Source: Acidimicrobiia bacterium (GTDB lineage Bacteria; Actinomycetota; Acidimicrobiia; Acidimicrobiales; JANYDT01). From it: a DNA stretch of 64,000 nucleotides. The DNA lies in assembly GCA_031383405.1 (NCBI GenBank), contig JANMZO010000145.1, forward strand, positions 1,244-65,243, in the 5' to 3' direction. The notes below the pieces were generated by a model. The model was given only the letters and a program-made list of their open reading frames with translations, did no database searches and had not been told where the DNA came from. The number at the start of each line of letters is the position of its first letter. Positions within the stretch are counted from its first letter, which is position 1. This document shows positions 43,731-53,506 of the stretch, in pieces. A program made the translations under genes and the position numbers.

Positions 43731-46424
43731 GTGGGTGCGCTTATGGTGCAGTCTCTCGATGATTTTCGGCGTCGCCAACCGGCGCAGCAACCTGCTGGAG
43801 CGCGGCTCCTTCCTCACAACGTCGAAGCCGAGGAGTCCCTGATCGGGGCGATGTTGCTCAGCCGCGAAGCGATTGCCAGCGCCGCCGAGATCTGTTCGGC
43901 GGGTGACTTCTACCGGCCCGCGCACGGTCATATCTTTGAGTCGATCATGTCGCTGTACGCTCACGGCGAACCGGCCGATCCCGTGACCGTGGCCGATGAG
44001 CTTCGCCGGTCCGGCCTGCTCGACATGATTGGTGGTTCAGGCGCTCTCGTAACTCTTCAGGCCGGTACTCCGACCACCACCAATGCCCAGCACTATGCCC
44101 GGATCGTCGAAGAACACGCGCTCCTACGCAAGCTGATCGCAGTCGCTGGAGACATTGCTGAAATGGGTTACAGCCTCCCCGAAGACATCAGCGCCGCTAT
44201 CGACCGCGCCGAAGCGATGATGTTCGACGTCGCGCAACGTCGAACGACCGACACGATGGCCCCGCTGCGTGATCTCCTCGGCCTGAACCTCGACCGTCTC
44301 GAAATGCTCTACGAGCGGGGCGAATCGATCACCGGTATTCCGTCCGGGTATCTCGACCTCGATGAGCGTCTCAACGGTCTGCAACCCAACGCTCTCTATA
44401 TCGTCGGTGCCCGACCCGCTATGGGCAAGTCAGCGTTCGCCCTTGGCATGGCCGCGCACGCGGCACTTGAGCAGCACAAGCCGGTGTTGTTCTTCTCGTT
44501 GGAAATGAGCCACATGGAGCTCACCCAGCGTCTCTTGTGTTCCGAGGCCAAGGTCGACGCGAACCGCATGCGCAACGGCAAGCTGCTCGCCGATGACTGG
44601 CCGAAGATCACCCATGCCGTCGGCCGCTTGGCCGAAGCGCCGATCTACATCGACGACAACCCGAACCTGACGGTGATGGAGATCCGAGGTAAGGCCAGGC
44701 GCCTGAAAGCCAAGCTCGGCGACCTCGGTCTCATCGTGATCGATTACCTCCAGCTCATGACCGGCCGTTCCAACGCGGAGAACCGACAGGTCGAAGTGGC
44801 GGAGATCAGCCGGGGGCTGAAGATCCTGGCCCGTGAGCTTGAGGTCCCGGTGGTCGCCCTCTCGCAGCTCTCCCGTAATCTCGAACAACGGGCCGATAAG
44901 CGTCCGATGCTCTCCGACCTCCGTGAGTCGGGATGCATGCCGGCGTCGACCAGGCTGCGGCGGGCCGACAACGGAGAAGAAATCACGCTAGGTGAACTGG
45001 TCCTTACCCAGATTCAGCCGCTGGTCTGGTCGATCGACGAGCGCGGTCGCATGGTGGCGGCGCGGCTTACCAATGCTTTCCCGTCGGGGATCAAAGAGTG
45101 CTTCCGACTCCGGTTGGCGTCGGGTCGGTCGGTCGAGGCAAGCGCCAATCACCGGTTCTTAACGGTCGACGGTTGGAAGCGGCTTGATGAGCTCGCTGTC
45201 GACGCGTTCGTAGCGACCCCTCGGGTCCTTCCGGCCCCGCTGAACGTTTCCGATTCGTGGACCGACGATCAACTCGCCCTGCTGGCCCACCTCATCGGCG
45301 ACGGATCGATCGGCCCGAGCTTCAAATACGCAACCGCCGACCCGGCAAATCGTGACCTGGTGATCCGGCTCGCCAAGTCGCTGTTCGGCATCGAGGCGAC
45401 CTACACCCAGGAGGGGAACACCTACCAGGTGTGGTTCCCAAGCCCGTACCGTCTCACCCAGGGCACGCGGCATCCGATGAGCAACTGGACCGACCCGCTC
45501 GGTTTGTTCGGGTCGCGGTCGTGGAACAAGTTCGTTCCGCCGTCGATTTTCGGATGCTCCGACGCGCAGGTTGCGCACTTTTTGCGGCATCTCTGGGCAA
45601 CGGATGGTTCGATCACGATCAGTCGCAATGGACGCGGTGATACAGCACGCGTCTACTACGCGACCACAAGTGAGCGCCTGGCGCTACACGTTCAGCAGCT
45701 TCTGCTCCGTCTGGGTATTCGGTCGAGCATTGGTATGGCGAAGAAAGAACGAGCCGGTGGTGGCGAGTACCGCCCCGGCTTCTCGGTTCGGATCCAGGGC
45801 ACCTTGGATCAAACCCGGTTCCTAACGTGTGTCGGCTGCTTCGGGCAGCGGGGAGACGTGATTTCGGAGGCACTCGCAATCGTGGCTCAACACACCCCGA
45901 ACCCAAACGTGGATCTTGTGCCGTGGGAGATTCTGGGGCAGGTGCGAGACGCCATGGCCTCTGCTGGTGTGACCCAGCGTGAACTGGCGACGACTTTGGG
46001 CGAGACCTACTGCGGTTCGTACCTACTCGGCAACGCATCGCGGCCACGGAGGTTTTCTCGTGATCGCCTGCGTCGCATCGGCGAAGTCGTTGGTTCGGCT
46101 TCCTTGGTCGACGCCGGGACCTCAGATGTGTTCTGGGACCGTATCGTGGCGATTGAGTCGACAGGCCCGCAGCCAACATTCGACGCAACCGTGGAAGGAA
46201 CGCACAACTTCATCGCCGAGGGGATTGTGGCCCACAACTCGTTGGAGCAAGATGCCGACGTCGTGATGTTTTTGTACCGCGACGAGGTGTACAACCCCGA
46301 ATCGCCCGACCGTGGTACCGCCGAGATCATCGTCGCCAAGCACCGATCGGGCCCGGTCGGTACAAGTCGCCTGGCCTTTCTCGACCACTACACGAAGTTC
46401 GCCAACATGGCGAAGGGCATCTGA
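43731..46424 (+). CDS. dnaB: Replicative DNA helicase DnaB, interrupted by an intein
   Basis: N-extein 'LPHNVEAEESLIGAML' and Walker A 'GARPAMGKSAFAL'. 'LSDLRESG' is followed by the intein and then 'SLEQDADVVMFLYRDE'. The exteins total 462 aa. Confidence 0.96.
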   Translation: MGALMVQSLDDFRRRQPAQQPAGARLLPHNVEAEESLIGAMLLSREAIASAAEICSAGDFYRPAHGHIFESIMSLYAHGEPADPVTVADELRRSGLLDMIGGSGALVTLQAGTPTTTNAQHYARIVEEHALLRKLIAVAGDIAEMGYSLPEDISAAIDRAEAMMFDVAQRRTTDTMAPLRDLLGLNLDRLEMLYERGESITGIPSGYLDLDERLNGLQPNALYIVGARPAMGKSAFALGMAAHAALEQHKPVLFFSLEMSHMELTQRLLCSEAKVDANRMRNGKLLADDWPKITHAVGRLAEAPIYIDDNPNLTVMEIRGKARRLKAKLGDLGLIVIDYLQLMTGRSNAENRQVEVAEISRGLKILARELEVPVVALSQLSRNLEQRADKRPMLSDLRESGCMPASTRLRRADNGEEITLGELVLTQIQPLVWSIDERGRMVAARLTNAFPSGIKECFRLRLASGRSVEASANHRFLTVDGWKRLDELAVDAFVATPRVLPAPLNVSDSWTDDQLALLAHLIGDGSIGPSFKYATADPANRDLVIRLAKSLFGIEATYTQEGNTYQVWFPSPYRLTQGTRHPMSNWTDPLGLFGSRSWNKFVPPSIFGCSDAQVAHFLRHLWATDGSITISRNGRGDTARVYYATTSERLALHVQQLLLRLGIRSSIGMAKKERAGGGEYRPGFSVRIQGTLDQTRFLTCVGCFGQRGDVISEALAIVAQHTPNPNVDLVPWEILGQVRDAMASAGVTQRELATTLGETYCGSYLLGNASRPRRFSRDRLRRIGEVVGSASLVDAGTSDVFWDRIVAIESTGPQPTFDATVEGTHNFIAEGIVAHNSLEQDADVVMFLYRDEVYNPESPDRGTAEIIVAKHRSGPVGTSRLAFLDHYTKFANMAKGI
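44934..46238 (+). mobile_element. DnaB intein (435 aa) with a LAGLIDADG homing-endonuclease domain
   Basis: Starts at Cys ('CMPASTRL') and has block B 'ASANHRF'. Two LAGLIDADG motifs, 'LLAHLIGDGSI' and 'FLRHLWATDGSI'. Ends 'GIVAHN' with +1 Ser. Inserted in the conserved RESG/S(I/L)EQDAD site. Confidence 0.92.
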
Positions 46425-46867: not shown

Positions 46868-49800
46868 CTACAGAACCGGCCACTGTGGGCATGTCCTCCG
46901 GTATGAAGCGGCCCCGTGGCTGAGGCGCCATTCCGCCCGCGTAAGGTTGCGTCCAGCCAGTTGACAGGCGGACCTGCGAAGAACGTCACTTTCGAGGTCA
47001 AGACGCACGAGGGGTCCAACGAGACCTCCGACCAGAAGGCCGTCACCTTTCACGGTGAGCTTCGGCCTTTGGGAATCAGCATCGAAGGGTCCCGCAACCG
47101 GTTCGAGTGAATCGCTGTCAAGGAAGCTGCCGTCACCTGTCACCAGGAGGGACCCATCAGCCGTGAAGGCTCTCGGGGTGACGCTGCGCTGCAGCGGGAA
47201 TCGACGGAACCGTTCGACCGTGCCGGTTCCGACGTCGTAGATAGCGAGCCACTGATTTCCGAAGCCGACGGCCAACCGTCGACCGTCGGGGCTGAATTGA
47301 GGCACAATCTGTCCGTCTGTCACGGACCGGTTTGGCGGTGGGAGTATTCGTAGCCGCGTACCGTCGCTCACCTGTCGAATTTCCGTGCGACCGTCCTGGG
47401 TCGAGATCGCCAGGAGTGAACCATCGAGGCTGAGGTCCCATCCGAGACCGAACAGTTCGGCTCGTTCGACCAGGCGCCCGAGGGGAATGGAGTGGATCAC
47501 CGGCGAGCGTGGCGGCGTGCCCTTGGGCACGTCCCACAACTCGATCGTCCGGGTCGGGGTGGTGCGGGCAACCATGACCGCCGTCCCCGTCGGCATGGAC
47601 GCAAGGGGTATCGCGAACATGGGGTCCCATAACGGCTTCCCAGCGGAGGAAACCACGATGGTCCGGTCGCGGCCGTCGGTCCCCTGATAGCCGATTTGGA
47701 GCCGGTCGACGGCGACCCAACCAAAACTGGGCGTGGCGTCTGGTGCGACGTCGGGGAGTGCGACCGCGTGATCCCGGTGGCGTTTGAGGTCGCGGATGTT
47801 CACGGTGTTGCCGTGAACGACGGCACGCAAGGAACCGTCGGGATTGGCGTCTGATGTCGTCTCCAGCGCACTGTCCAATGTGGCACCGGCGGGTGTGAGT
47901 CCGGACCGGATTGACAGTACCGAACCCGCCAACGTCGAGACCGCAAGGCGTGTCTCCTGCCCGCGCGTCGGCAGACCGAAGGCCGGAGACCAGGGAAGTG
48001 ACCCGCCCGGAAGCTGGCGTTCGCTGCCGTCACCAAGGTCAACCAATCGTCCCCCGCCCTTCGACTGGGCGAAGACGAGAAACCGGTGATCCATCGACGT
48101 CGTGCACGCCAGATCGTCGGAGGTGCTGATCTGCCGGGAGGCCACCAAGTCCCAGAACTGCAGCGCGACGGCGCTTTCGCATGGTCGGCCGACCGGGAAG
48201 TAGCTGGGCTGGTCGGACTGTCGACCCTCAGTCCCGACCGTTGTGCGCGATGGGTCCGGCGTTACGACAACGGCCCGCTGATCGCGTTCCCCGGCATACA
48301 GGATTGGCCAACCATGGATCACCTGGAACGTGTGACGTAACTTCTGCAACGGGTTGTCGACAATGAGGCTGCTGAACGTTGCGCCCGCCTGGGAGGCGGA
48401 AAGGTGAACCGACAGGTAGTTGCCGTGCGGGCTGAACGCCACGTCGGTGAAGCTGGTGAACCCCCTCACGACGACTACCGGGTCCGGTCGCGCGAGGCGA
48501 AGGTCGAAAGCCGCAATCGGCAGTTTGTCGGCGGGGTCGGCGGGGTCGGCGGGGTCGGCGGGCGAAAACACCACGACGGCGGAGCTGCCATCCGGCGACA
48601 GCGCGAACGCACCGCTGGCGACCTCGCCGAGTCGGTGGCTGATTTTCGCCGAACCGGGCGTTCCGACCAGCACGCGACCTTTCGGGTCGGCGGCGAGCAT
48701 CACCGGTGCCTTGAGGGCGAAGCGTGGCATTGGAATGGCGCCGATCTCTCCGCCCGGTACCGGGCTCCGGGCGGCACTGCGCCACAAATCGAGCATCACG
48801 GGCCTGGACGCAGACCCCGCAGCGAGGTCGACGGCGACGAGGTAGCGGCCGTCGGGGCTGAAGGCGTCGCCATCCAGATAGGAACCTGTCACGCCTTTGC
48901 CCCTGGTGAGGAGCTTGGTTGTCGTTGCGTCGATGACGGTGTATTCGGCGGGTTTGAATCGCTGCACCACGAAGGTCCGGCCATCGGGTGAAATCTGGAT
49001 GGATGGGGCCAGAGTCCGGCCGGAGGTGCCAGTGCCGGTGACGGTCGGAGACACCTCCCGGTGGACCCGCCGTTCATGCCCGGGCTCAAGGTCCCAGATC
49101 TCCAGTGCGTTGGTCGCTTTCGCGTCATCGGCCGAGGTGACGGCGACGTACCGGTTCGACGCACCGAACTGGATGCTCACCACCCGACCCTCCCACTTGC
49201 CGATCCCTCTGAGGGTCGTGGTGTTCGGGCCGACATCCCACACGTAGAACTGCGGGTCGCCCGCCGGCTCGTGACCGATGGTGGTCGTGAGCCACGCGCC
49301 CGCGGCGACTCGCCGGCCGTCGGCGGTGATCGACGGTTTCGACAGCAGGCCGGGGGCGTTTGGATCCTCCGGAAGGTGCAATGTCCGATCGGTCCCATCA
49401 GCAACGTGAACGATGTCGAGGAGCGTTCCCCAAACCCGCCTTGCAGCTGCACCGGAACGATCGGGGTCGACCCGCTCCATGACTGACGACGCGTCAACGG
49501 CGAGCAGGAGTGAACGGACGAGTTGGTCGTTCACTGAAGCCCTCGCAGTTTCAGCGAGCGAGACGGCGAACGCCATGTCACGCTCCGTTCGTCGGCGTCC
49601 GGACTGTCTGCTCGATGCCACAGCAAGGGTCCCGGCGACGAGTGCCAATGAGATAATGGCGGAGGCGACGGCCAGGATCTGTCGACGCCGACGCCGGATG
49701 CCTTTCTCGGAGGCTTCGACGTAGCGGATCACCGTCGGCGGCACGCCGGTGTGATCGGGCTGGGTCTCAAGCCACGTCCGCGCCTCCTTCGCTGCGTCGG

Positions 49801-51400
49801 GGCCCAGGAGGAAATCGTCGCCTCCGCTCCACGCTGCCGCCCGTTGTTCCAGACGGGTCCGACGGACAAGGTCGTCACGACCCACCCGGACCGCCTCGGC
49901 GAGCCGCGGCCACGACTCGATCAGCCGGTCATGCACCAGGCGGGCCGTGCCGGCATCGGCGACGATGAGCCGTTCATCAGCCAGACGGTCCACGAGAACG
50001 GCTTCCGAAGCCGAGAGAGAATCAAGCGCCACGGGTTTGCTGCCAGCGACCCGATTGTCGGGTATCTGCACGAACCGCATCAGGAGCTGGTTGAGCGCGT
50101 CACTCTGGTCACCGGCGAGGCGGGCTTCGGCCTGCGAGGTGCGCCGACCGATCGCCCCTTCGATCCGGCCCACTTCTTCGTAGTGGTGGATGCCCATGGT
50201 GTCATCGTGCGCCGCGGTGACGCAGTCATACATCTGCTGCAACGTGAAAGCGATCAACGGGAGTGAACGGCCGGGGTCGTCTTCAGCACCCCGCATGGCA
50301 TCGTCGATGATCAGCTGGGTGAGGCCGGGTTCTATCGACAAATCCGCCTTCGACGCCGGCCCCTCGATCACGAGGGCCAGGGCGGAACGGTCGAGAGGGG
50401 CCACCACGAACGGTTCGCGGATCATCGGCCCGATCGGGGCGAGCGGCTGCATCTCGTTCAGCCGGTCCTGCCGGAGGGTGATGACGAGCGTGACGGGAGA
50501 GTGGGCCACGAGACCGGTCGCCATGACCTGGAGGAAGGGGTCGCGGTCGGCTGGGAGGAGCGTGGTCAACTGTTCAGCCTGATCGATCACGATGAGGAGA
50601 CGCCGTGAGCCCGGCCGGGCGTCGAGCAGACGCGATGCCACGCGGGCCAGCCCCTCTGACCGTAGTGTGGAGGCGTCGACCGGATGGCCGCCGGCTGCGG
50701 TCAGTGATGCGGCGAGCCGATCGAGCGGGAACGTTCCAGGCTCGAAGGGTGGAGCAACAACCCAGCCCTTCTGATCGAGGAGTCGAGGCACCACACCGGC
50801 ACGTACCAGTGACGACTTGCCCGCACCCGACGCCCCGATGATGGCGAACAACTGCCCATCGGGTTCAGGGATGGACGGATCGATACGGTCGAGCACCCGG
50901 CGCACGTCAAGGTCGCGACCGAAGAACACGGCAGCGTCGGACTCGTCGAAGGAACGCAGCCCCGGATAAGGGGATCGTCGTCGGTCCCATCGGCCGCGAG
51001 GCACCGAGCCGATGTCGGTCGTAAGTCGTTCCACGAGTTCGCGTGCACTTGATTCGAGATCACGCTCGAGTCGGATGCCCTGCACCTGGGTGAGAATCGG
51101 GTGCGGTGACAGTGGCGACTCGAGATCGAGCGGATAGACGGGCTTCGCGCGTTCGAGCGCCAAAGCGATTTCGGTGTGACACCACATGGAACGCTGCGAG
51201 GCGGCCGAATTCAGGAATACCACGGCCTGACACAGACGCAACTCCCGGAATAACTCGTGTTGCCAGTCGCGGCCGGGCGCGATCCCATCATCGTGATCCG
51301 TGTCGAGGAACACGTCGTGTCCCGCCGCTCGTAAAACCGCAGCCAGCTGTTCGGCGGCTCCTCGCTCCGACGAACTATGACTGATGAAGCAGTCAGCCAT
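46868..51400 (-). CDS. TIR domain / STAND (nSTAND-like) P-loop NTPase / single TM helix / large beta-propeller repeat protein
   Basis: 1510 aa. TIR: 'CFISHSS...VVFLNSAASQRSMWCHTEIALA'. NTPase: 'PYPGLRSFDESDAAVFFGRD', Walker A 'GASGAGKSS', Walker B 'LLIVIDQAEQ'. Hydrophobic helix 'ILAVASAIISLALVAGTLAVAS' at aa 575-596. Many 'SPDGR/TADG' repeat signatures follow. Confidence 0.85.
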   Translation of the reverse strand: MADCFISHSSSERGAAEQLAAVLRAAGHDVFLDTDHDDGIAPGRDWQHELFRELRLCQAVVFLNSAASQRSMWCHTEIALALERAKPVYPLDLESPLSPHPILTQVQGIRLERDLESSARELVERLTTDIGSVPRGRWDRRRSPYPGLRSFDESDAAVFFGRDLDVRRVLDRIDPSIPEPDGQLFAIIGASGAGKSSLVRAGVVPRLLDQKGWVVAPPFEPGTFPLDRLAASLTAAGGHPVDASTLRSEGLARVASRLLDARPGSRRLLIVIDQAEQLTTLLPADRDPFLQVMATGLVAHSPVTLVITLRQDRLNEMQPLAPIGPMIREPFVVAPLDRSALALVIEGPASKADLSIEPGLTQLIIDDAMRGAEDDPGRSLPLIAFTLQQMYDCVTAAHDDTMGIHHYEEVGRIEGAIGRRTSQAEARLAGDQSDALNQLLMRFVQIPDNRVAGSKPVALDSLSASEAVLVDRLADERLIVADAGTARLVHDRLIESWPRLAEAVRVGRDDLVRRTRLEQRAAAWSGGDDFLLGPDAAKEARTWLETQPDHTGVPPTVIRYVEASEKGIRRRRRQILAVASAIISLALVAGTLAVASSRQSGRRRTERDMAFAVSLAETARASVNDQLVRSLLLAVDASSVMERVDPDRSGAAARRVWGTLLDIVHVADGTDRTLHLPEDPNAPGLLSKPSITADGRRVAAGAWLTTTIGHEPAGDPQFYVWDVGPNTTTLRGIGKWEGRVVSIQFGASNRYVAVTSADDAKATNALEIWDLEPGHERRVHREVSPTVTGTGTSGRTLAPSIQISPDGRTFVVQRFKPAEYTVIDATTTKLLTRGKGVTGSYLDGDAFSPDGRYLVAVDLAAGSASRPVMLDLWRSAARSPVPGGEIGAIPMPRFALKAPVMLAADPKGRVLVGTPGSAKISHRLGEVASGAFALSPDGSSAVVVFSPADPADPADPADKLPIAAFDLRLARPDPVVVVRGFTSFTDVAFSPHGNYLSVHLSASQAGATFSSLIVDNPLQKLRHTFQVIHGWPILYAGERDQRAVVVTPDPSRTTVGTEGRQSDQPSYFPVGRPCESAVALQFWDLVASRQISTSDDLACTTSMDHRFLVFAQSKGGGRLVDLGDGSERQLPGGSLPWSPAFGLPTRGQETRLAVSTLAGSVLSIRSGLTPAGATLDSALETTSDANPDGSLRAVVHGNTVNIRDLKRHRDHAVALPDVAPDATPSFGWVAVDRLQIGYQGTDGRDRTIVVSSAGKPLWDPMFAIPLASMPTGTAVMVARTTPTRTIELWDVPKGTPPRSPVIHSIPLGRLVERAELFGLGWDLSLDGSLLAISTQDGRTEIRQVSDGTRLRILPPPNRSVTDGQIVPQFSPDGRRLAVGFGNQWLAIYDVGTGTVERFRRFPLQRSVTPRAFTADGSLLVTGDGSFLDSDSLEPVAGPFDADSQRPKLTVKGDGLLVGGLVGPLVRLDLESDVLRRSACQLAGRNLTRAEWRLSHGAASYRRTCPQWPVL
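48527..48562. repeat. 4 x 9-bp in-frame repeat inside the TIR-STAND gene
   Basis: (GTCGGCGGG)x4 encodes 'PADPADPADPAD' on the minus strand. Confidence 0.9.
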
Positions 51401-51625: not shown

Positions 51626-53506
51626 TTGCCCACGATGTCCCCCGGTGCCGAACCATCCGTAACAGGACGCTCGAGCCTCGATTTGAAAGCCCGACGACTC
51701 CGCGACAGGTTGCGGATCGCCGTCCAACCCGTGTTGGCGGGGATCGCCGTCCTCACGCTCGTCTTCGGCAGTATCGGATACCACACGTACCTTTCACGTC
51801 ACGGGCTCCCAGCGGGTCCGGTCGATGTCGCGTACGCCCAACTCGACCTCTTCCGTCTCGGAAACCGCCCGGACGGTGCTCTCCCGTGGACCTTGCAGGT
51901 CGCGAGGGCGCTTGTCCCGATAGTGGTTGGCTACGGGTTCTTTCGAGCGACGTTCGCGCTGTTTCGCGAGCGGGTCGACCGTTTGCGCCTGCAGACCCGA
52001 AGCGGCCAGGTGCTCGTCATTGGGACCGGTCCGGTGGTTCGCGACTTTGCGACCGCTATGCGGCGTCTGCATCCCAAGATTGTCGTCCTGCGGCACGAAC
52101 CGGACACGGCCCTGAGCCCGGGTTCGCTTCTCCGGGGGACGCTGAGCTTCCGGGGAGACGCCACGGTCGCGGAGGTCGTCGAGGAGGCGGGGCTCGGGCG
52201 GGCGACGACCGTGGTTGTCTTAACCGACGACGATTCACTGAATCTGACCCTGGTTCTTCGCGCGCGAAGCCGCGCCGCTGCGGCGGGTGTCGCGGTTCGT
52301 GCCGTTGCTGCCGTGAGCCGCGCTGAGCTCTGCCGGAGCCTACGGGTCGACGCGCTGAACGACGCGAACAACCGGTGCTCCGTCGACTACATCAACACGG
52401 CCGAACTCACCGCCCGCACCATCGTCGCGGAACTTCGACGGGTCCTCGACCCTCCCACCCCGACCCGTTCCCCGGCGGCGCCTGCGCGCCGACTGACCAT
52501 TCTCCTCGACGCACCCCCCGTACTTGCCTCCCAGGTTGCGGTTCGCATCGCCCGCGAGGTTGACAACGTCAACAGTGGATCGAACGATGCTCCGGTGTCG
52601 GTCACGGTGAGCTTTGTCGGGGCCGATGCACCCTTCGCCGTGGAGGAGGCCCGCCGGTGGGCGCCCGGTCTCGACGGGACCATCCAACTCGGCGCAACAG
52701 TGGACATCACCACCGGAGACGACCAGATGACGGCGGTGGCGGGTATTGTCCTCGCGAGGGTCGGCGTCGAGTCGATGGCGGAGGCGATTCGTCTGGCCGG
52801 TCGGATGTCCAATGACGGCATCATCGTCGTGGGTGCAGTCGACGCCACGGCGTTGGCGCTCCTCACCCCGCCCGACGACGCTGCGGGCGCCCGTATCGTC
52901 CTGGTCGATACCGGTTCATGGGCCCGTGACCCGGAGCTCGTCATCGGCGGCACGGTTGAACACATCGCTCGCGCGACCCACGAGAACTACCGGGCTGCAT
53001 ACGTCGAGGCATTGACCCTCGACTCCCGTCCGACGGACAGCTCCTCCCCTTCCCGGCCATCGCTGGAGGTCAAGGACATCGCAGGGTTCTCATCGGGTAT
53101 CCCCACCGTGGGGAAATCCGATCCCGCGTTCGTCGCGTGGCCTCAGCTGGCCCCGCACTTCCGGGAGTCCAACCGGGCGCTGGCCCGCAGTGTCGCGGCG
53201 AAGCTCGCCGCGGTTGGTTGCATGCTCGTACCGAGCGGACTTCCGTCTGTCCGCTGGCGGGACGACGAGATCGAACTGCTGGCTCGGCTCGAGCACATTC
53301 GGTGGTGCGACGAACGTCGTTCGGCCGGTTGGCGTCCGGGGCAGCGTGACCCGGCGAGCCGGACGACACCGTTCCTGGTTCCGTGGGAGGAGCTCGATGA
53401 CTCGGCGAGAGAACTTGATCGGGCGGTCGTGAGGGATCTGCCGCGGTTCCTGGCGGACCTTGGCTATGCCGTGCTCCGGGTCTCCCGACCTGCCGTCGAC
53501 AGGTGA
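51626..53506 (+). CDS. Membrane protein: two TM helices with a degenerate K-channel-like pore loop, RCK/TrkA-N-like Rossmann domain(s), and a C-terminal RyR domain
   Basis: TM1 'VLAGIAVLTLVFGSIGY', loop 'VDVAYAQLDLFRLGNRPDG', TM2 'ARALVPIVVGYGFF', and 'VLVIGTGPVVRDF'. RyR: 'LARLEHIRWCDERRSAGWRPGQRDPASRTTPFLVPWEELDDSARELDRAVVRDLPRFLADLGY'. Start is TTG 51626 or ATG 51635. Confidence 0.7.
   Translation: MPTMSPGAEPSVTGRSSLDLKARRLRDRLRIAVQPVLAGIAVLTLVFGSIGYHTYLSRHGLPAGPVDVAYAQLDLFRLGNRPDGALPWTLQVARALVPIVVGYGFFRATFALFRERVDRLRLQTRSGQVLVIGTGPVVRDFATAMRRLHPKIVVLRHEPDTALSPGSLLRGTLSFRGDATVAEVVEEAGLGRATTVVVLTDDDSLNLTLVLRARSRAAAAGVAVRAVAAVSRAELCRSLRVDALNDANNRCSVDYINTAELTARTIVAELRRVLDPPTPTRSPAAPARRLTILLDAPPVLASQVAVRIAREVDNVNSGSNDAPVSVTVSFVGADAPFAVEEARRWAPGLDGTIQLGATVDITTGDDQMTAVAGIVLARVGVESMAEAIRLAGRMSNDGIIVVGAVDATALALLTPPDDAAGARIVLVDTGSWARDPELVIGGTVEHIARATHENYRAAYVEALTLDSRPTDSSSPSRPSLEVKDIAGFSSGIPTVGKSDPAFVAWPQLAPHFRESNRALARSVAAKLAAVGCMLVPSGLPSVRWRDDEIELLARLEHIRWCDERRSAGWRPGQRDPASRTTPFLVPWEELDDSARELDRAVVRDLPRFLADLGYAVLRVSRPAVDR

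What the first reader, a model, noticed from the sequence alone, without database searches (positions are those of the whole stretch)
49613..49678. Hydrophobic helix splits the TIR-STAND protein: possible Toll-like-receptor-style transmembrane topology
Seen: 'RRRRQ-ILAVASAIISLALVAGTLAVAS-SRQSGRRR' (aa 575-596) is the only strongly hydrophobic segment of the 1510-aa protein. It sits exactly between the TIR+NTPase half and the ~900-aa propeller half.

Established: STAND sensors are normally fully cytoplasmic, whereas animal TLRs combine an extracellular repeat sensor, one TM helix and a cytoplasmic TIR.

Inference: if the helix spans the membrane, the propellers would be extracytoplasmic. That would make this a surface-sensing TIR receptor, which is unusual for bacteria. 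Basic residues flank both sides of the helix, so the orientation is ambiguous.
Basis: inference. Interest (0 to 1): 0.6.

Follow-up and report, generated by a model that had tools for sequence, protein, structure and literature searches.

The report
Membrane-spanning helix in TIR-STAND receptor
The hydrophobic stretch is most likely a real membrane-crossing helix that puts this protein's propeller sensor outside the cell and its TIR and ATPase parts inside, a layout shared by most relatives and already listed in published tables, though never tested at the bench.

Summary
Bases 49613-49678 (minus strand) encode aa 575-596 of a 1510-aa protein with the order TIR, nSTAND1 NTPase, hydrophobic helix, beta-propellers.

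The helix is the only strongly hydrophobic segment. It is not amphipathic and sits in a 67-residue continuous helix in the AlphaFold model. Taken alone its hydrophobicity is weak evidence: 305 of 5000 composition shuffles reach it.

Relatives carry the case:
- 111 of 120 close homologues keep an uncharged span of about 22 residues at the same place. So do 80-92 of 134 usable representatives at 50% identity.
- The arginine cluster lies on the NTPase side in 109 of 111.
- The part after the helix is cysteine-poor with even counts (149 even, 38 odd), against 94/93 before the helix.
- The two tail cysteines are the only invariant residues of that part.
- Relatives without the helix mostly lack this cysteine pair.

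All of this points to an N-in, C-out topology with the propellers outside the cytoplasm.

It is not unusual. Supplementary tables of Kaur et al. 2021 list 'TIR+nSTAND1+TM+BetaPropeller', and this scan met the same layout twice on other DNA. No paper I found tests or discusses the topology.

Verdict: new member of a known kind, of moderate interest.

The parts
46868..51400 (-). Whole gene, 1510 aa: TIR, nSTAND1 NTPase, hydrophobic helix, beta-propellers, two-cysteine tail
   Evidence: ORF list and translation; Pfam scan
51044..51388 (-). TIR domain, aa 5-119. The SxWCxxE motif ends at E77, the position of the catalytic glutamate of NAD-cleaving TIRs (that role is recalled).
   Evidence: PF13676 TIR_2, E 1.9e-19, 70.7 bits against a cut-off of 28. 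W, C and E of the motif are 90% or more conserved in alignment A1. Motif position.
49826..50971 (-). nSTAND1 STAND NTPase, aa 144-525. Walker A is at aa 189-197 and the Walker B-like hhhhDQ at aa 268-277.
   Evidence: PF20703, E 1.4e-82, 278.8 bits against a cut-off of 27.1; motif positions
49679..49696 (-). Arginine cluster (aa 569-574) on the NTPase side of the helix; the conserved positive-inside flank
   Evidence: Family mean K+R in the 15-residue N flank is 6.2, against 2.3 in the C flank.
49610..49678 (-). Uncharged hydrophobic span aa 575-597, the predicted single transmembrane helix.
   Evidence: KD19 2.38; mean H 0.76, moment 0.14; conserved in 111 of 120 close homologues and 80-92 of 134 representatives
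49538..49738 (-). One continuous helix of 67 residues in the AlphaFold2 model (aa 555-621) that contains the hydrophobic span
   Evidence: helix 35-101 of the folded fragment (fragment residue + 520). Ten-residue pLDDT block means are 84-96 over this stretch.
49400..49522 (-). Two further helices after the membrane span (aa 627-667); a helical cap ahead of the propellers
   Evidence: helices 107-122 and 130-147 of the fragment. The region aligns with the equivalent region of P0003.
48011..49351 (-). First beta-rich region, aa 684-1130: divergent WD40/PD40-type blades. Contains the cysteine pair C1074/C1099.
   Evidence: Strands in the model, mixed pLDDT; Pfam PD40 25.4 bits and weak WD40 hits; Foldseek hits to tandem WD40 propellers; cysteine positions
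47630..48004 (-). Stretch with no confident structure, aa 1133-1257. It falls within the stretch (aa 1007-1256) that did not align to the closest relative.
   Evidence: pLDDT block means about 24-43. The BLASTP alignment to P0003 skips aa 1007-1256.
47135..47614 (-). Second beta-rich region, aa 1263-1422: better-conserved WD40-like blades
   Evidence: pLDDT 73-91 over most of it; Pfam Beta-prop_THOC3 and EML_2 hits at 1269-1424
46871..46990 (-). C-terminal helical tail, aa 1471-1510, with the conserved cysteine pair C1479/C1504
   Evidence: These two cysteines are the only invariant columns of the folded fragment in the 47-sequence alignment A1. pLDDT is 87-95 over the last four blocks. The pair co-occurs with the helix across representatives.

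Best explanation
The gene encodes a single-pass membrane protein of the nSTAND1 family.

Proposed topology (inferred from sequence patterns, not measured):
- The N-terminal 570 residues, TIR domain plus STAND NTPase, stay in the cytoplasm.
- Residues 575-597 cross the membrane once as a signal-anchor.
- The C-terminal 910 residues lie outside the cytoplasmic membrane. They comprise a helical cap, divergent WD40/PD40-type propellers and a small tail held by a conserved cysteine pair.

Proposed mechanism (inferred from how STAND and TIR proteins work in general):
- The propellers cannot fold back onto the NTPase across the bilayer. A cue met outside the cell would therefore have to act by clustering or re-orienting the receptors through the long helix.
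- Clustering would allow the NTPase modules to oligomerise and bring the TIR domains together.
- The TIR keeps the glutamate of NAD-cleaving TIRs, so the likely output is NAD+ breakdown, either growth arrest and death or a signalling nucleotide.

The gene is accessory and fast-evolving. It was found in no same-genus genome searched, which fits a conflict or recognition role.
For: Helix conservation:
- 111 of 120 listed homologues carry a KD>=1.6 span at aa 520-760, with a median uncharged length of 22 residues, range 19-27. P0002 was dropped because it is the window's own protein under another start.
- 165 of the 173 fetched proteins that carry nSTAND1 have the span just after the NTPase.
- Among the best 150 of 35,853 representatives at 50% identity, 134 are long enough to judge. 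Of these, 92 have KD>=1.6 and 80 have KD>=2.0.
- The spans share hydrophobicity but little sequence: 16% mean pairwise identity. That is what a lipid-facing anchor looks like.

Positive-inside pattern:
- Close homologues: K+R in the 15-residue flanks is 6.2 (N) against 2.3 (C). N>C in 109, equal in 2, N<C in 0 of 111.
- Representatives: 5.78 against 2.52. N>C in 84, equal in 5, N<C in 3 of 92.

Cysteine pattern, set against the abstract of Daniels et al. 2010 (PMC2823432), which reports even-biased cysteines in exported proteins of aerobic Actinobacteria:
- After the helix, 149 even and 38 odd; before it, 94 and 93 (n=187).
- In representatives, 58 even and 13 odd after the helix (binomial p 6e-8); 34 and 37 before it (n=71).
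- 106 of 187 have exactly two cysteines after the helix. 116 of 187 have none in the propellers apart from the last 60 residues.
- Propeller cysteine density has a median of 0% (n=173) in the helix class and 1.0% (n=31) in relatives without the helix.

Tail cysteine pair:
- C1479 and C1504 are the only invariant columns of the part beyond the NTPase in a 47-sequence alignment.
- The pair tracks the helix. With the helix, 44 have it and 27 lack it; without the helix, 2 have it and 28 lack it. Fisher p 1.5e-7.

Partners of related propellers:
- All four nSTAND1 paralogues in this genome have the same helix and tail. Two of them carry a DNA-binding SARP/BTAD head plus a kinase, and those parts must be cytoplasmic.
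- Related propellers are joined through a similar helix to a TIR alone, to a protein kinase or to a sigma-70 region.

Structure:
- The AlphaFold2 model gives one continuous helix, aa 555-621, with pLDDT 84-96.
- The part after it matches tandem WD40 propellers: 2ymu_A at E 1.4e-16 and Apaf-1 3sfz at E 8.4e-15.

Distribution:
- No match in the 4 same-genus genomes searched, and a match in 5 of 18 same-family genomes.
- The best match has 43% identity over aa 1-640 only.
Against: - No dedicated topology predictor (DeepTMHMM, Phobius, TOPCONS) could be run. The scales used are simple ones.
- In this protein alone the flanks are nearly balanced: 6 K+R on the N side against 5 on the C side. A strongly basic C flank is unfavourable for translocation, so the call is weaker for this member than for the family.
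- 305 of 5000 composition shuffles reach the same hydrophobicity.
- 42 of 134 representatives have no such helix and still keep the NTPase-propeller order. The module can therefore work within one compartment.
- Cysteine parity does not differ significantly between the helix and no-helix classes: 56/15 against 19/11, Fisher p 0.135.
- 27 of 71 helix-class representatives lack the tail pair.
- A few KD>=1.6 calls are plainly not membrane spans: P0256, P0279 and P0285.
- The sequences are related and the blades are repeats, so all p-values overstate the case.
- In this genome the parts before the helix in the three complete paralogues also hold an even number (four) of cysteines, so parity says nothing at that scale.
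- The model is of middling quality: mean pLDDT 64.8, pTM 0.57, Foldseek TM-scores only 0.13-0.16.
- The ligand, the signalling step and NADase activity are all untested.
Confidence: 0.7

Rival explanations
1. The helix does span the membrane and the propellers are outside, but the protein is not an outside-in sensor. The helix and ectodomain would only localise the protein, for example to the envelope, the septum or wall polymers. Activation of the NTPase and TIR would come from a cytoplasmic cue or from membrane damage.
For: - No ligand is known.
- The propeller part is very divergent. The best non-self hit to it alone has E 1.4e-17 over 15% of its length.
- About 125 residues of it (aa 1133-1257) have no confident structure.
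- Published text on other conflict systems with TM segments says only that they 'function proximal to the membrane' (Kaur et al. 2020, passages).
Against: - A 900-residue repeat ectodomain with a conserved disulfide-type tail is a costly anchor.
- In STAND proteins the C-terminal repeats are the sensor in every characterised case. This is general knowledge, echoed in passages of PMC13581612.
- The same helix-plus-propeller module is attached to several different output heads: TIR, SARP-kinase, peptidase and cyclase. That is the pattern of a shared input module.
Confidence: 0.15
2. The segment is not a membrane span. It would be the hydrophobic core of a long stalk helix that packs against other copies or against the propellers, and the whole protein would be cytoplasmic like the characterised STAND sensors.
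For: - The model shows a 67-residue continuous helix.
- The span is rich in Ala, Ser and Gly, with five small-xxx-small pairs.
- Composition shuffles reach its hydrophobicity in 6% of trials.
- 42 of 134 representatives lack it.
- The C flank of this member is as basic as the N flank.
Against: - The uncharged run of 19-27 residues is kept while its sequence drifts: 16% pairwise identity.
- The arginine cluster is one-sided in 109 of 111 homologues.
- The hydrophobic moment is low, 0.14.
- Cysteine depletion, the even counts and the invariant cysteine pair occur only on the C side, and the pair is mostly lost in relatives without the helix.
Confidence: 0.1
3. The span acts as an internal signal-anchor that is then cut. 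The uncharged span ends in an Ala-x-Ala-type sequence, so the propeller part would be released outside and the TIR-NTPase part would stay behind as a separate protein.
For: Only the small residues at the end of the uncharged span in this protein and in many relatives.
Against: - Ala-rich spans give such motifs by chance.
- Cutting would uncouple sensor and effector, which makes the conserved fusion hard to explain.
- No evidence of processing was available.
Confidence: 0.03

Closest known systems
nSTAND1 proteins listed as 'TIR+nSTAND1+TM+BetaPropeller' and 'nSTAND1+TM+BetaPropeller' in the source data of Kaur, Iyer, Burroughs and Aravind 2021 (eLife 10:e70394, PMC8195603, file fig2-data1)
   Same: Same domain order, including the TM segment. 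In that file the string 'nSTAND1+TM+BetaPropeller' occurs 304 times, 'TIR+nSTAND1+TM' 16 times and 'nSTAND1+TM' 461 times. The NTPase matches PF20703 at 278.8 bits.
   Different: - The propeller part of this member is unusually divergent and about 230 residues longer than in its nearest relatives.
- In the main-text passages I saw, the paper names the clade but does not discuss the TM segment or the topology.
- I read supplement hits only, not the whole table.
Animal Toll-like receptors
   Same: [quoted passage not shown] Activation by ligand-driven association is the likely shared logic; this last point is inference.
   Different: - Polarity is reversed: here the TIR is N-terminal, there is no signal peptide, and the ectodomain is C-terminal.
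- The ectodomain is a propeller, not LRR.
- A STAND NTPase sits between the TIR and the membrane.
- The TIR keeps the enzyme-type glutamate, whereas in TLRs the TIR is an adaptor scaffold. The TLR description rests on passages of PMC7075850 and general knowledge.
- This is resemblance of logic, not family membership.
Cytoplasmic STAND sensors with WD40 propellers (Apaf-1; bacterial Avs and bNACHT-type antiphage proteins)
   Same: The order effector head, STAND NTPase, C-terminal repeat sensor. Foldseek matches the part after the helix to Apaf-1 (3sfz, E 8.4e-15) and to a cyanobacterial repetitive propeller (2ymu_A, E 1.4e-16).
   Different: - Those sensors lie in the same compartment as the NTPase and act on it directly. 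Here a membrane helix separates the two.
- PADLOC gives only weak TIR-level (ThsB-like) hits and no system call.
- The passages I read of the 2026 Nature survey of defence STANDs (PMC13581612) speak of recognition inside cells and do not mention this layout.
- Kibby et al. [quoted passage not shown]
Single-pass TIR-TM-WD40 proteins without an NTPase
   Same: A cytoplasmic TIR, one arginine-flanked helix and WD40 propellers beyond it. In P0125 TIR_2 lies at aa 16-130, the helix near aa 215 and WD40 repeats follow.
   Different: They have no STAND switch between the TIR and the membrane.
Actinobacterial receptor Ser/Thr kinases with an extracellular beta-propeller sensor (PknD type; recalled, not looked up here)
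   Same: A cytoplasmic signalling domain, one TM helix and an extracytoplasmic beta-propeller. Kinase-helix-WD40 relatives turned up in my own searches, for example P0126 with Pkinase at aa 125-375 and a helix near aa 414.
   Different: The output is a kinase, not an NTPase plus TIR. The PknD propeller is of another repeat type; that point is recalled.

Membership tests
nSTAND1 STAND NTPases (Pfam PF20703) | Match to the family model above its curated cut-off | tested here: met
   278.8 bits against a cut-off of 27.1, E 1.4e-82, covering model positions 1-372 of 379 at aa 144-525
nSTAND1 STAND NTPases (Pfam PF20703) | Intact P-loop NTPase motifs (Walker A GxxxxGK[ST]; Walker B hydrophobic strand ending in D) | tested here: met
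   Walker A lies at aa 189-197 and hhhhDQ at aa 268-277. The G, K, S and D, Q, E columns are 90% or more conserved in A1.
nSTAND1 STAND NTPases (Pfam PF20703) | Published architecture class with a TM segment between the NTPase and the beta-propeller | tested here: met
   The helix lies at aa 575-597. The strings 'TIR+nSTAND1+TM+BetaPropeller' are present in the supplement of PMC8195603.
NAD-cleaving TIR domains (Pfam PF13676 TIR_2) | Match to the TIR model above its cut-off | tested here: met
   70.7 bits against a cut-off of 28, at aa 5-119. Weak ThsB/ThcB4-like hits in PADLOC and NCBIfam are far below the NCBIfam cut-off.
NAD-cleaving TIR domains (Pfam PF13676 TIR_2) | Glutamate in the W-x-x-x-E motif that is catalytic in enzyme-type TIRs | tested here: met
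   The motif ends at E77. W, C and E of the motif are 90% or more conserved among 47 aligned relatives. That this glutamate is the catalytic one is recalled, not tested.
NAD-cleaving TIR domains (Pfam PF13676 TIR_2) | NAD+ hydrolase or cyclase activity | not testable with these tools
   Needs an enzyme assay
Single-pass (bitopic) membrane proteins, N-in/C-out | One hydrophobic span of about 20 residues and no second one | tested here: met
   KD19 is 2.38 against a next best of 1.58. The uncharged run is 23 residues. Mean H is 0.76 and the moment 0.14.
Single-pass (bitopic) membrane proteins, N-in/C-out | Positive-inside charge bias | tested here: inconclusive
   This protein has 6 K+R on the N side against 5 on the C side. 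The family has 6.2 against 2.3, with N>C in 109 of 111, and 84 of 92 among representatives.
Single-pass (bitopic) membrane proteins, N-in/C-out | Score from a trained topology predictor, or experimental topology | not testable with these tools
   No DeepTMHMM, Phobius or TOPCONS was on hand. No reporter data exist.
Animal Toll-like receptors | N-terminal signal peptide and extracellular LRR ectodomain, then a TM helix, then a C-terminal TIR (type I) | tested here: not met
   The TIR is at the N terminus and there are no LRR hits. The ectodomain candidate is C-terminal and of WD40/PD40 type. The N terminus has no hydrophobic segment; the top KD windows are listed.
WD40-type beta-propellers | Repeat model matches or fold match | tested here: inconclusive
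   - Pfam WD40 scores 18.3 bits, below its cut-off of 27.
- PD40 scores 25.4 bits, above its cut-off of 20.9.
- The whole-domain propeller models are far below their cut-offs.
- Foldseek gives probability 1.00 to tandem WD40 propellers, but TM-scores are only 0.13-0.16 on a model of mean pLDDT 64.8.
Known antiphage defence systems (PADLOC-DB 2.0) | Match to a system protein model | tested here: not met
   Only TIR-level hits to ThsB and SAVED-TIR models (E 1e-8 to 1e-4) and a P-loop-only hit

The most novel reading that the evidence does not exclude
This family would be an outward-facing NLR-like receptor, a bacterial fusion of the Toll-like and NOD-like designs. The extracytoplasmic propellers would meet a cue at the cell surface: a phage particle, a foreign or kin hypha, or envelope damage. 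Clustering would pass through the single helix to the STAND switch, and the TIR would then destroy NAD+ before or without any entry of foreign material into the cytoplasm. The cysteine pair that comes and goes with the helix would mark which relatives face outward.
Probability: 0.3. Interest if true: 0.8.

Novelty: new member of a known kind. Interest (0 to 1): 0.4.

Why it matters
Every bacterial STAND immune sensor characterised so far detects its trigger inside the cell. If the propellers of this large family really face outward, a major branch of the bacterial NLR-like proteins would work as surface receptors. That would extend the known ways a STAND switch can be driven, and it would supply bacterial examples of the ectodomain, single-helix, TIR design known from animals.

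The family is large. There are 35,853 representatives at 50% identity with E<=0.001 to the NTPase-plus-helix query, and a majority of those examined carry the helix. The layout is catalogued but untested, so a simple topology experiment would settle a point that affects many genomes.

For this particular gene the result is modest. It is one more member, with an unusually divergent ectodomain.

Tried and rejected
- Hydrophobicity of the single sequence as proof was rejected. Shuffles reach it in 305 of 5000 trials.
- Searching with the part after the helix alone for close relatives in other contexts gave only weak, repeat-level hits. The best non-self hit was E 1.4e-17 over 15% of the query. 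The N-terminal signal-like segments seen on some of those hits therefore say little about this propeller.
- Cysteine parity between the helix and no-helix classes was not significant (Fisher p 0.135).
- Parity within this genome's four paralogues is uninformative, because the parts before the helix are also even.
- A scan of genome contigs for close relatives found none: 378 pattern matches, none confirmed.
- Sequence search of solved structures gave one weak WD40 hit for the whole protein and two non-significant hits for the TIR domain alone (E 0.69 and 0.99).
- The fold did not give coordinates, so I could not measure the distance between the paired cysteines or see whether the helix stands free.
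- I considered an N-out orientation. I rejected it because the N-terminal half has no signal peptide and needs ATP and NAD+, and because the basic flank is on the N side across the family.
- I considered a decayed gene. I rejected it because the frame is open over 1510 codons and the TIR, Walker and tail motifs are intact.
- Literature searches for a discussion of this topology were followed by passage look-ups in six papers. They found none for nSTAND1. The only mention is in the supplementary tables.
- Supplements of bioRxiv preprints could not be seen.
Full report
**What is there**

The finding lies in a 1510-codon open frame on the minus strand, 46868..51400. Residues 575-596 map exactly to bases 49613-49678.

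Pfam places:
- a TIR_2 domain at aa 5-119 (70.7 bits against a cut-off of 28);
- the nSTAND1 NTPase at aa 144-525 (278.8 bits against 27.1);
- only weak WD40, PD40 and whole-propeller hits between aa 736 and 1424.

The Walker A motif is at aa 189-197 and the Walker B-like motif at aa 268-277. The TIR motif ends in E77 and is intact.

The hydrophobic run is 23 uncharged residues, aa 575-597. Five arginines come directly before it, and five arginines fall within the fifteen residues after it. It is the only window with a Kyte-Doolittle 19-residue mean above 1.6: it scores 2.38 and the next best 1.58.

**Is it more than chance?**

Not on its own. The protein is rich in Ala, Val and Leu, and 305 of 5000 shuffles of its composition reach a window of 2.38 or more. 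An uncharged run of 23 turns up in 686 of 5000. The case rests on relatives.

**Conservation**

A search with the whole protein gave 1013 hits at E<=0.001 among 8000 scored, of which 120 were listed. I dropped P0002, which is the window's own protein under a later start.
- 111 of the remaining 120 sequences (P0001 and 119 listed homologues) have a span with KD>=1.6 starting between aa 520 and 760. The uncharged length has a median of 22 and a range of 19-27.
- I located the NTPase with phmmer in the 238 proteins then held. 165 of the 173 proteins with nSTAND1 have the span just behind it, and 8 do not.

A full HMMER pass over 1.84 billion representatives at 50% identity, with aa 130-640 as query, found 35,853 at E<=0.001 and 2,518 at E<=1e-30.
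- Of the best 150, 134 have at least 60 residues after the NTPase.
- 92 of those have KD>=1.6, 80 have KD>=2.0 and 42 have no such span.
- A few of the calls between 1.6 and 2.0 are clearly not membrane spans: P0256, P0279 and P0285. The true share is therefore nearer 60% than 69%.
- The spans are alike in composition (A 25%, L 19%, V 17%) but share only 16% pairwise identity. That is how lipid-facing anchors behave.

**Orientation**

The family is not.
- Close homologues: the N flank carries 6.2 K+R and the C flank 2.3. N exceeds C in 109 of 111, is equal in 2 and is never lower.
- Representatives: 5.78 against 2.52, with N>C in 84, equal in 5 and lower in 3 of 92.

The N-terminal half has no signal peptide and needs ATP and NAD+, so the orientation is N-in, C-out.

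**An independent line: cysteines**

The abstract of Daniels et al. [quoted passage not shown]

Among 187 fetched proteins with an internal span of KD>=2.0:
- the part after the span has an even number of cysteines in 149 and an odd number in 38;
- the part before it is 94 even against 93 odd;
- 106 of the 187 have exactly two cysteines after the span;
- 116 have none in the propellers once the last 60 residues are set aside.

Propeller cysteine density has a median of 0% in the span class (n=173, with 112 at zero). In relatives without a span the median is 1.0% (n=31, with 2 at zero). Mann-Whitney p is 4e-13.

In the less redundant representative set:
- the part after the span is even in 58 and odd in 13 (binomial p 6e-8);
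- the part before it is 34 even against 37 odd (n=71, those with 400 or more residues after the span).

The two cysteines are a conserved pair in a short helical tail. In a 47-sequence alignment, C1479 and C1504 are the only invariant columns of the whole part beyond the NTPase.

Relatives without the span keep a recognisably related tail, but almost all lack the pair. Among representatives with 450 or more residues after the NTPase:
- 44 with the span have the pair and 27 lack it;
- 2 without the span have it and 28 lack it;
- Fisher p is 1.5e-7.

Limits of this line:
- The sequences are related and the blades are internal repeats, so the p-values overstate the case.
- Parity does not differ significantly between the two classes: 56/15 against 19/11, p 0.135.
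- In this genome's own paralogues the cytoplasmic parts happen to be even as well.

**Context in the genome and in relatives**

The assembly (6.0 Mb, 486 contigs) holds four strong nSTAND1 genes. All four have an arginine-flanked span about 415 residues after Walker A, the two-cysteine tail, and four cysteines after the span arranged in two close pairs.

Two of them begin with a winged-helix DNA-binding domain, a BTAD domain and a protein kinase. Those heads can only work in the cytoplasm.

Proteins found through the propeller part show the same kind of helix-plus-propeller module behind other heads: a TIR alone, a protein kinase or a sigma-70 region. The module behaves as a shared input unit for many outputs.

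The gene itself is accessory:
- none of the 4 same-genus genomes searched (completeness 76-93%) has a match at E<=1e-30;
- 5 of 18 same-family genomes do;
- the best match reaches 43% identity over aa 1-640 only.

Its neighbours are a dnaB gene with an intein, convergent with it, and a TrkA_N-RyR protein, divergent from it. No partner gene is evident. PADLOC recognises only the TIR.

**Structure**

AlphaFold2 on aa 521-1510 with the 47-row alignment gave a middling model, with mean pLDDT 64.8 and pTM 0.57.

Its confident parts are:
- one continuous 67-residue helix, aa 555-621, that contains the span (block pLDDT 84-96);
- two cap helices, aa 627-667;
- a second beta region, aa 1263-1422;
- the tail helices.

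The first beta region, aa 684-1130, is mixed. Residues 1133-1257 have no confident structure and fall within aa 1007-1256, the stretch that did not align to the nearest relative.

Foldseek matches tandem WD40 propellers such as 2ymu_A (E 1.4e-16) and Apaf-1 3sfz (E 8.4e-15). TM-scores are only 0.13-0.16. No coordinates were available to me.

**How it most likely works**

Shown:
- the domain order;
- the conserved span and the one-sided charge;
- the cysteine pattern.

Inferred:
- The span is a signal-anchor that leaves the TIR and NTPase inside and exports the propellers, whose tail is held by a disulfide.
- The sensor cannot touch the NTPase across the bilayer. Activation must therefore pass through the helix, most simply by ligand-driven clustering that lets the NTPase modules oligomerise and the TIR domains assemble.
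- The TIR then cleaves NAD+.

I put 0.7 on the topology with this general mechanism. The rivals are a mere anchoring role, a cytoplasmic stalk helix and a cleaved signal-anchor. They are listed with their evidence in the Rival explanations section.

**Comparison with what is known**

The nSTAND1 clade was named by Kaur et al. 2021. In the main-text passages I saw, the TM segment is not discussed.

A note from an earlier agent of this scan (e1-1264524) said the layout stands in published tables. I checked, and it does. The source-data file fig2-data1 of that paper holds 'nSTAND1+TM' 461 times, 'nSTAND1+TM+BetaPropeller' 304 times and 'TIR+nSTAND1+TM' 16 times, including 'TIR+nSTAND1+TM+BetaPropeller'.

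Other papers:
- The Kibby et al. 2022 preprint mentions a NACHT class with multiple TM regions that may sense intra-membrane or periplasmic signals.
- Doré et al. 2024 predict a periplasmic sensor for one NACHT target.
- The 2026 Nature survey of defence STANDs speaks of recognition inside cells in the passages I read.

Six full-text searches turned up no paper that tests or argues the topology of nSTAND1-TM-propeller proteins.

The likeness to Toll-like receptors is one of logic, not of membership. The polarity, the ectodomain type and the intervening NTPase all differ.

**Verdict**

The feature is the common state of a large, already catalogued family, and this scan has met it before on other DNA (e1-1264524 and e1-2368906).

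It is a new member of a known kind. The open and testable point is the outward-facing topology of the whole family. The link between the helix and the tail cysteine pair, seen here, offers a cheap marker for it.

Noticed in passing
window 43731-46424 (+): The replicative helicase gene dnaB carries an intein with a LAGLIDADG homing-endonuclease domain. Pfam hits are DnaB, DnaB_C, Intein_splicing and LAGLIDADG_3. It lies convergent with the TIR-STAND gene, in an ssb/dnaB neighbourhood.
   Followed up: no
window 51626-53506 (+): A 626-aa protein with a TrkA_N (NAD-binding) domain and a RyR domain is transcribed divergently from the TIR-STAND gene, 225 bases away. It has no PADLOC hit. I did not test whether it is functionally linked.
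   Followed up: partly
L011:3354-8660 (-) and L012:2241-7163 (-), own genome contigs C304 and C327: Two giant paralogues of 1769 and 1641 aa. Their order is winged-helix DNA-binding domain, BTAD, protein kinase, nSTAND1, one arginine-flanked helix, propellers, two-cysteine tail. They look like transmembrane one-component regulators built on the same module.
   Followed up: partly
window 46871-46990 (-), and tails of relatives: The C-terminal tail comes in two related forms. One has a conserved cysteine pair about 25 residues apart and is found mostly with the membrane helix. The other has no cysteines and is found in relatives without the helix. Some helix-bearing relatives instead have a CxxC just before the tail.
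   Followed up: partly
proteins P0101, P0105, P0118 and about a dozen representatives (for example P0272, P0274, P0377): A subgroup of nSTAND1-WD40 proteins has no TIR and no helix after the NTPase. It has strongly hydrophobic segments at the extreme N terminus instead, with the NTPase starting near aa 72-76. This is a different way of tethering the protein to the membrane.
   Followed up: no
window 47630-48004 (-), aa 1133-1257: About 125 residues inside the propeller region have very low model confidence, and they fall within the stretch (aa 1007-1256) that did not align to the nearest relative. This could be an insertion, a degenerate set of blades or a separate small domain.
   Followed up: no
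protein P0002 (database copy of this gene): The public protein collection holds this protein as 1478 aa, 32 residues shorter than the frame read here. The longer start fits the TIR N terminus of relatives.
   Followed up: partly
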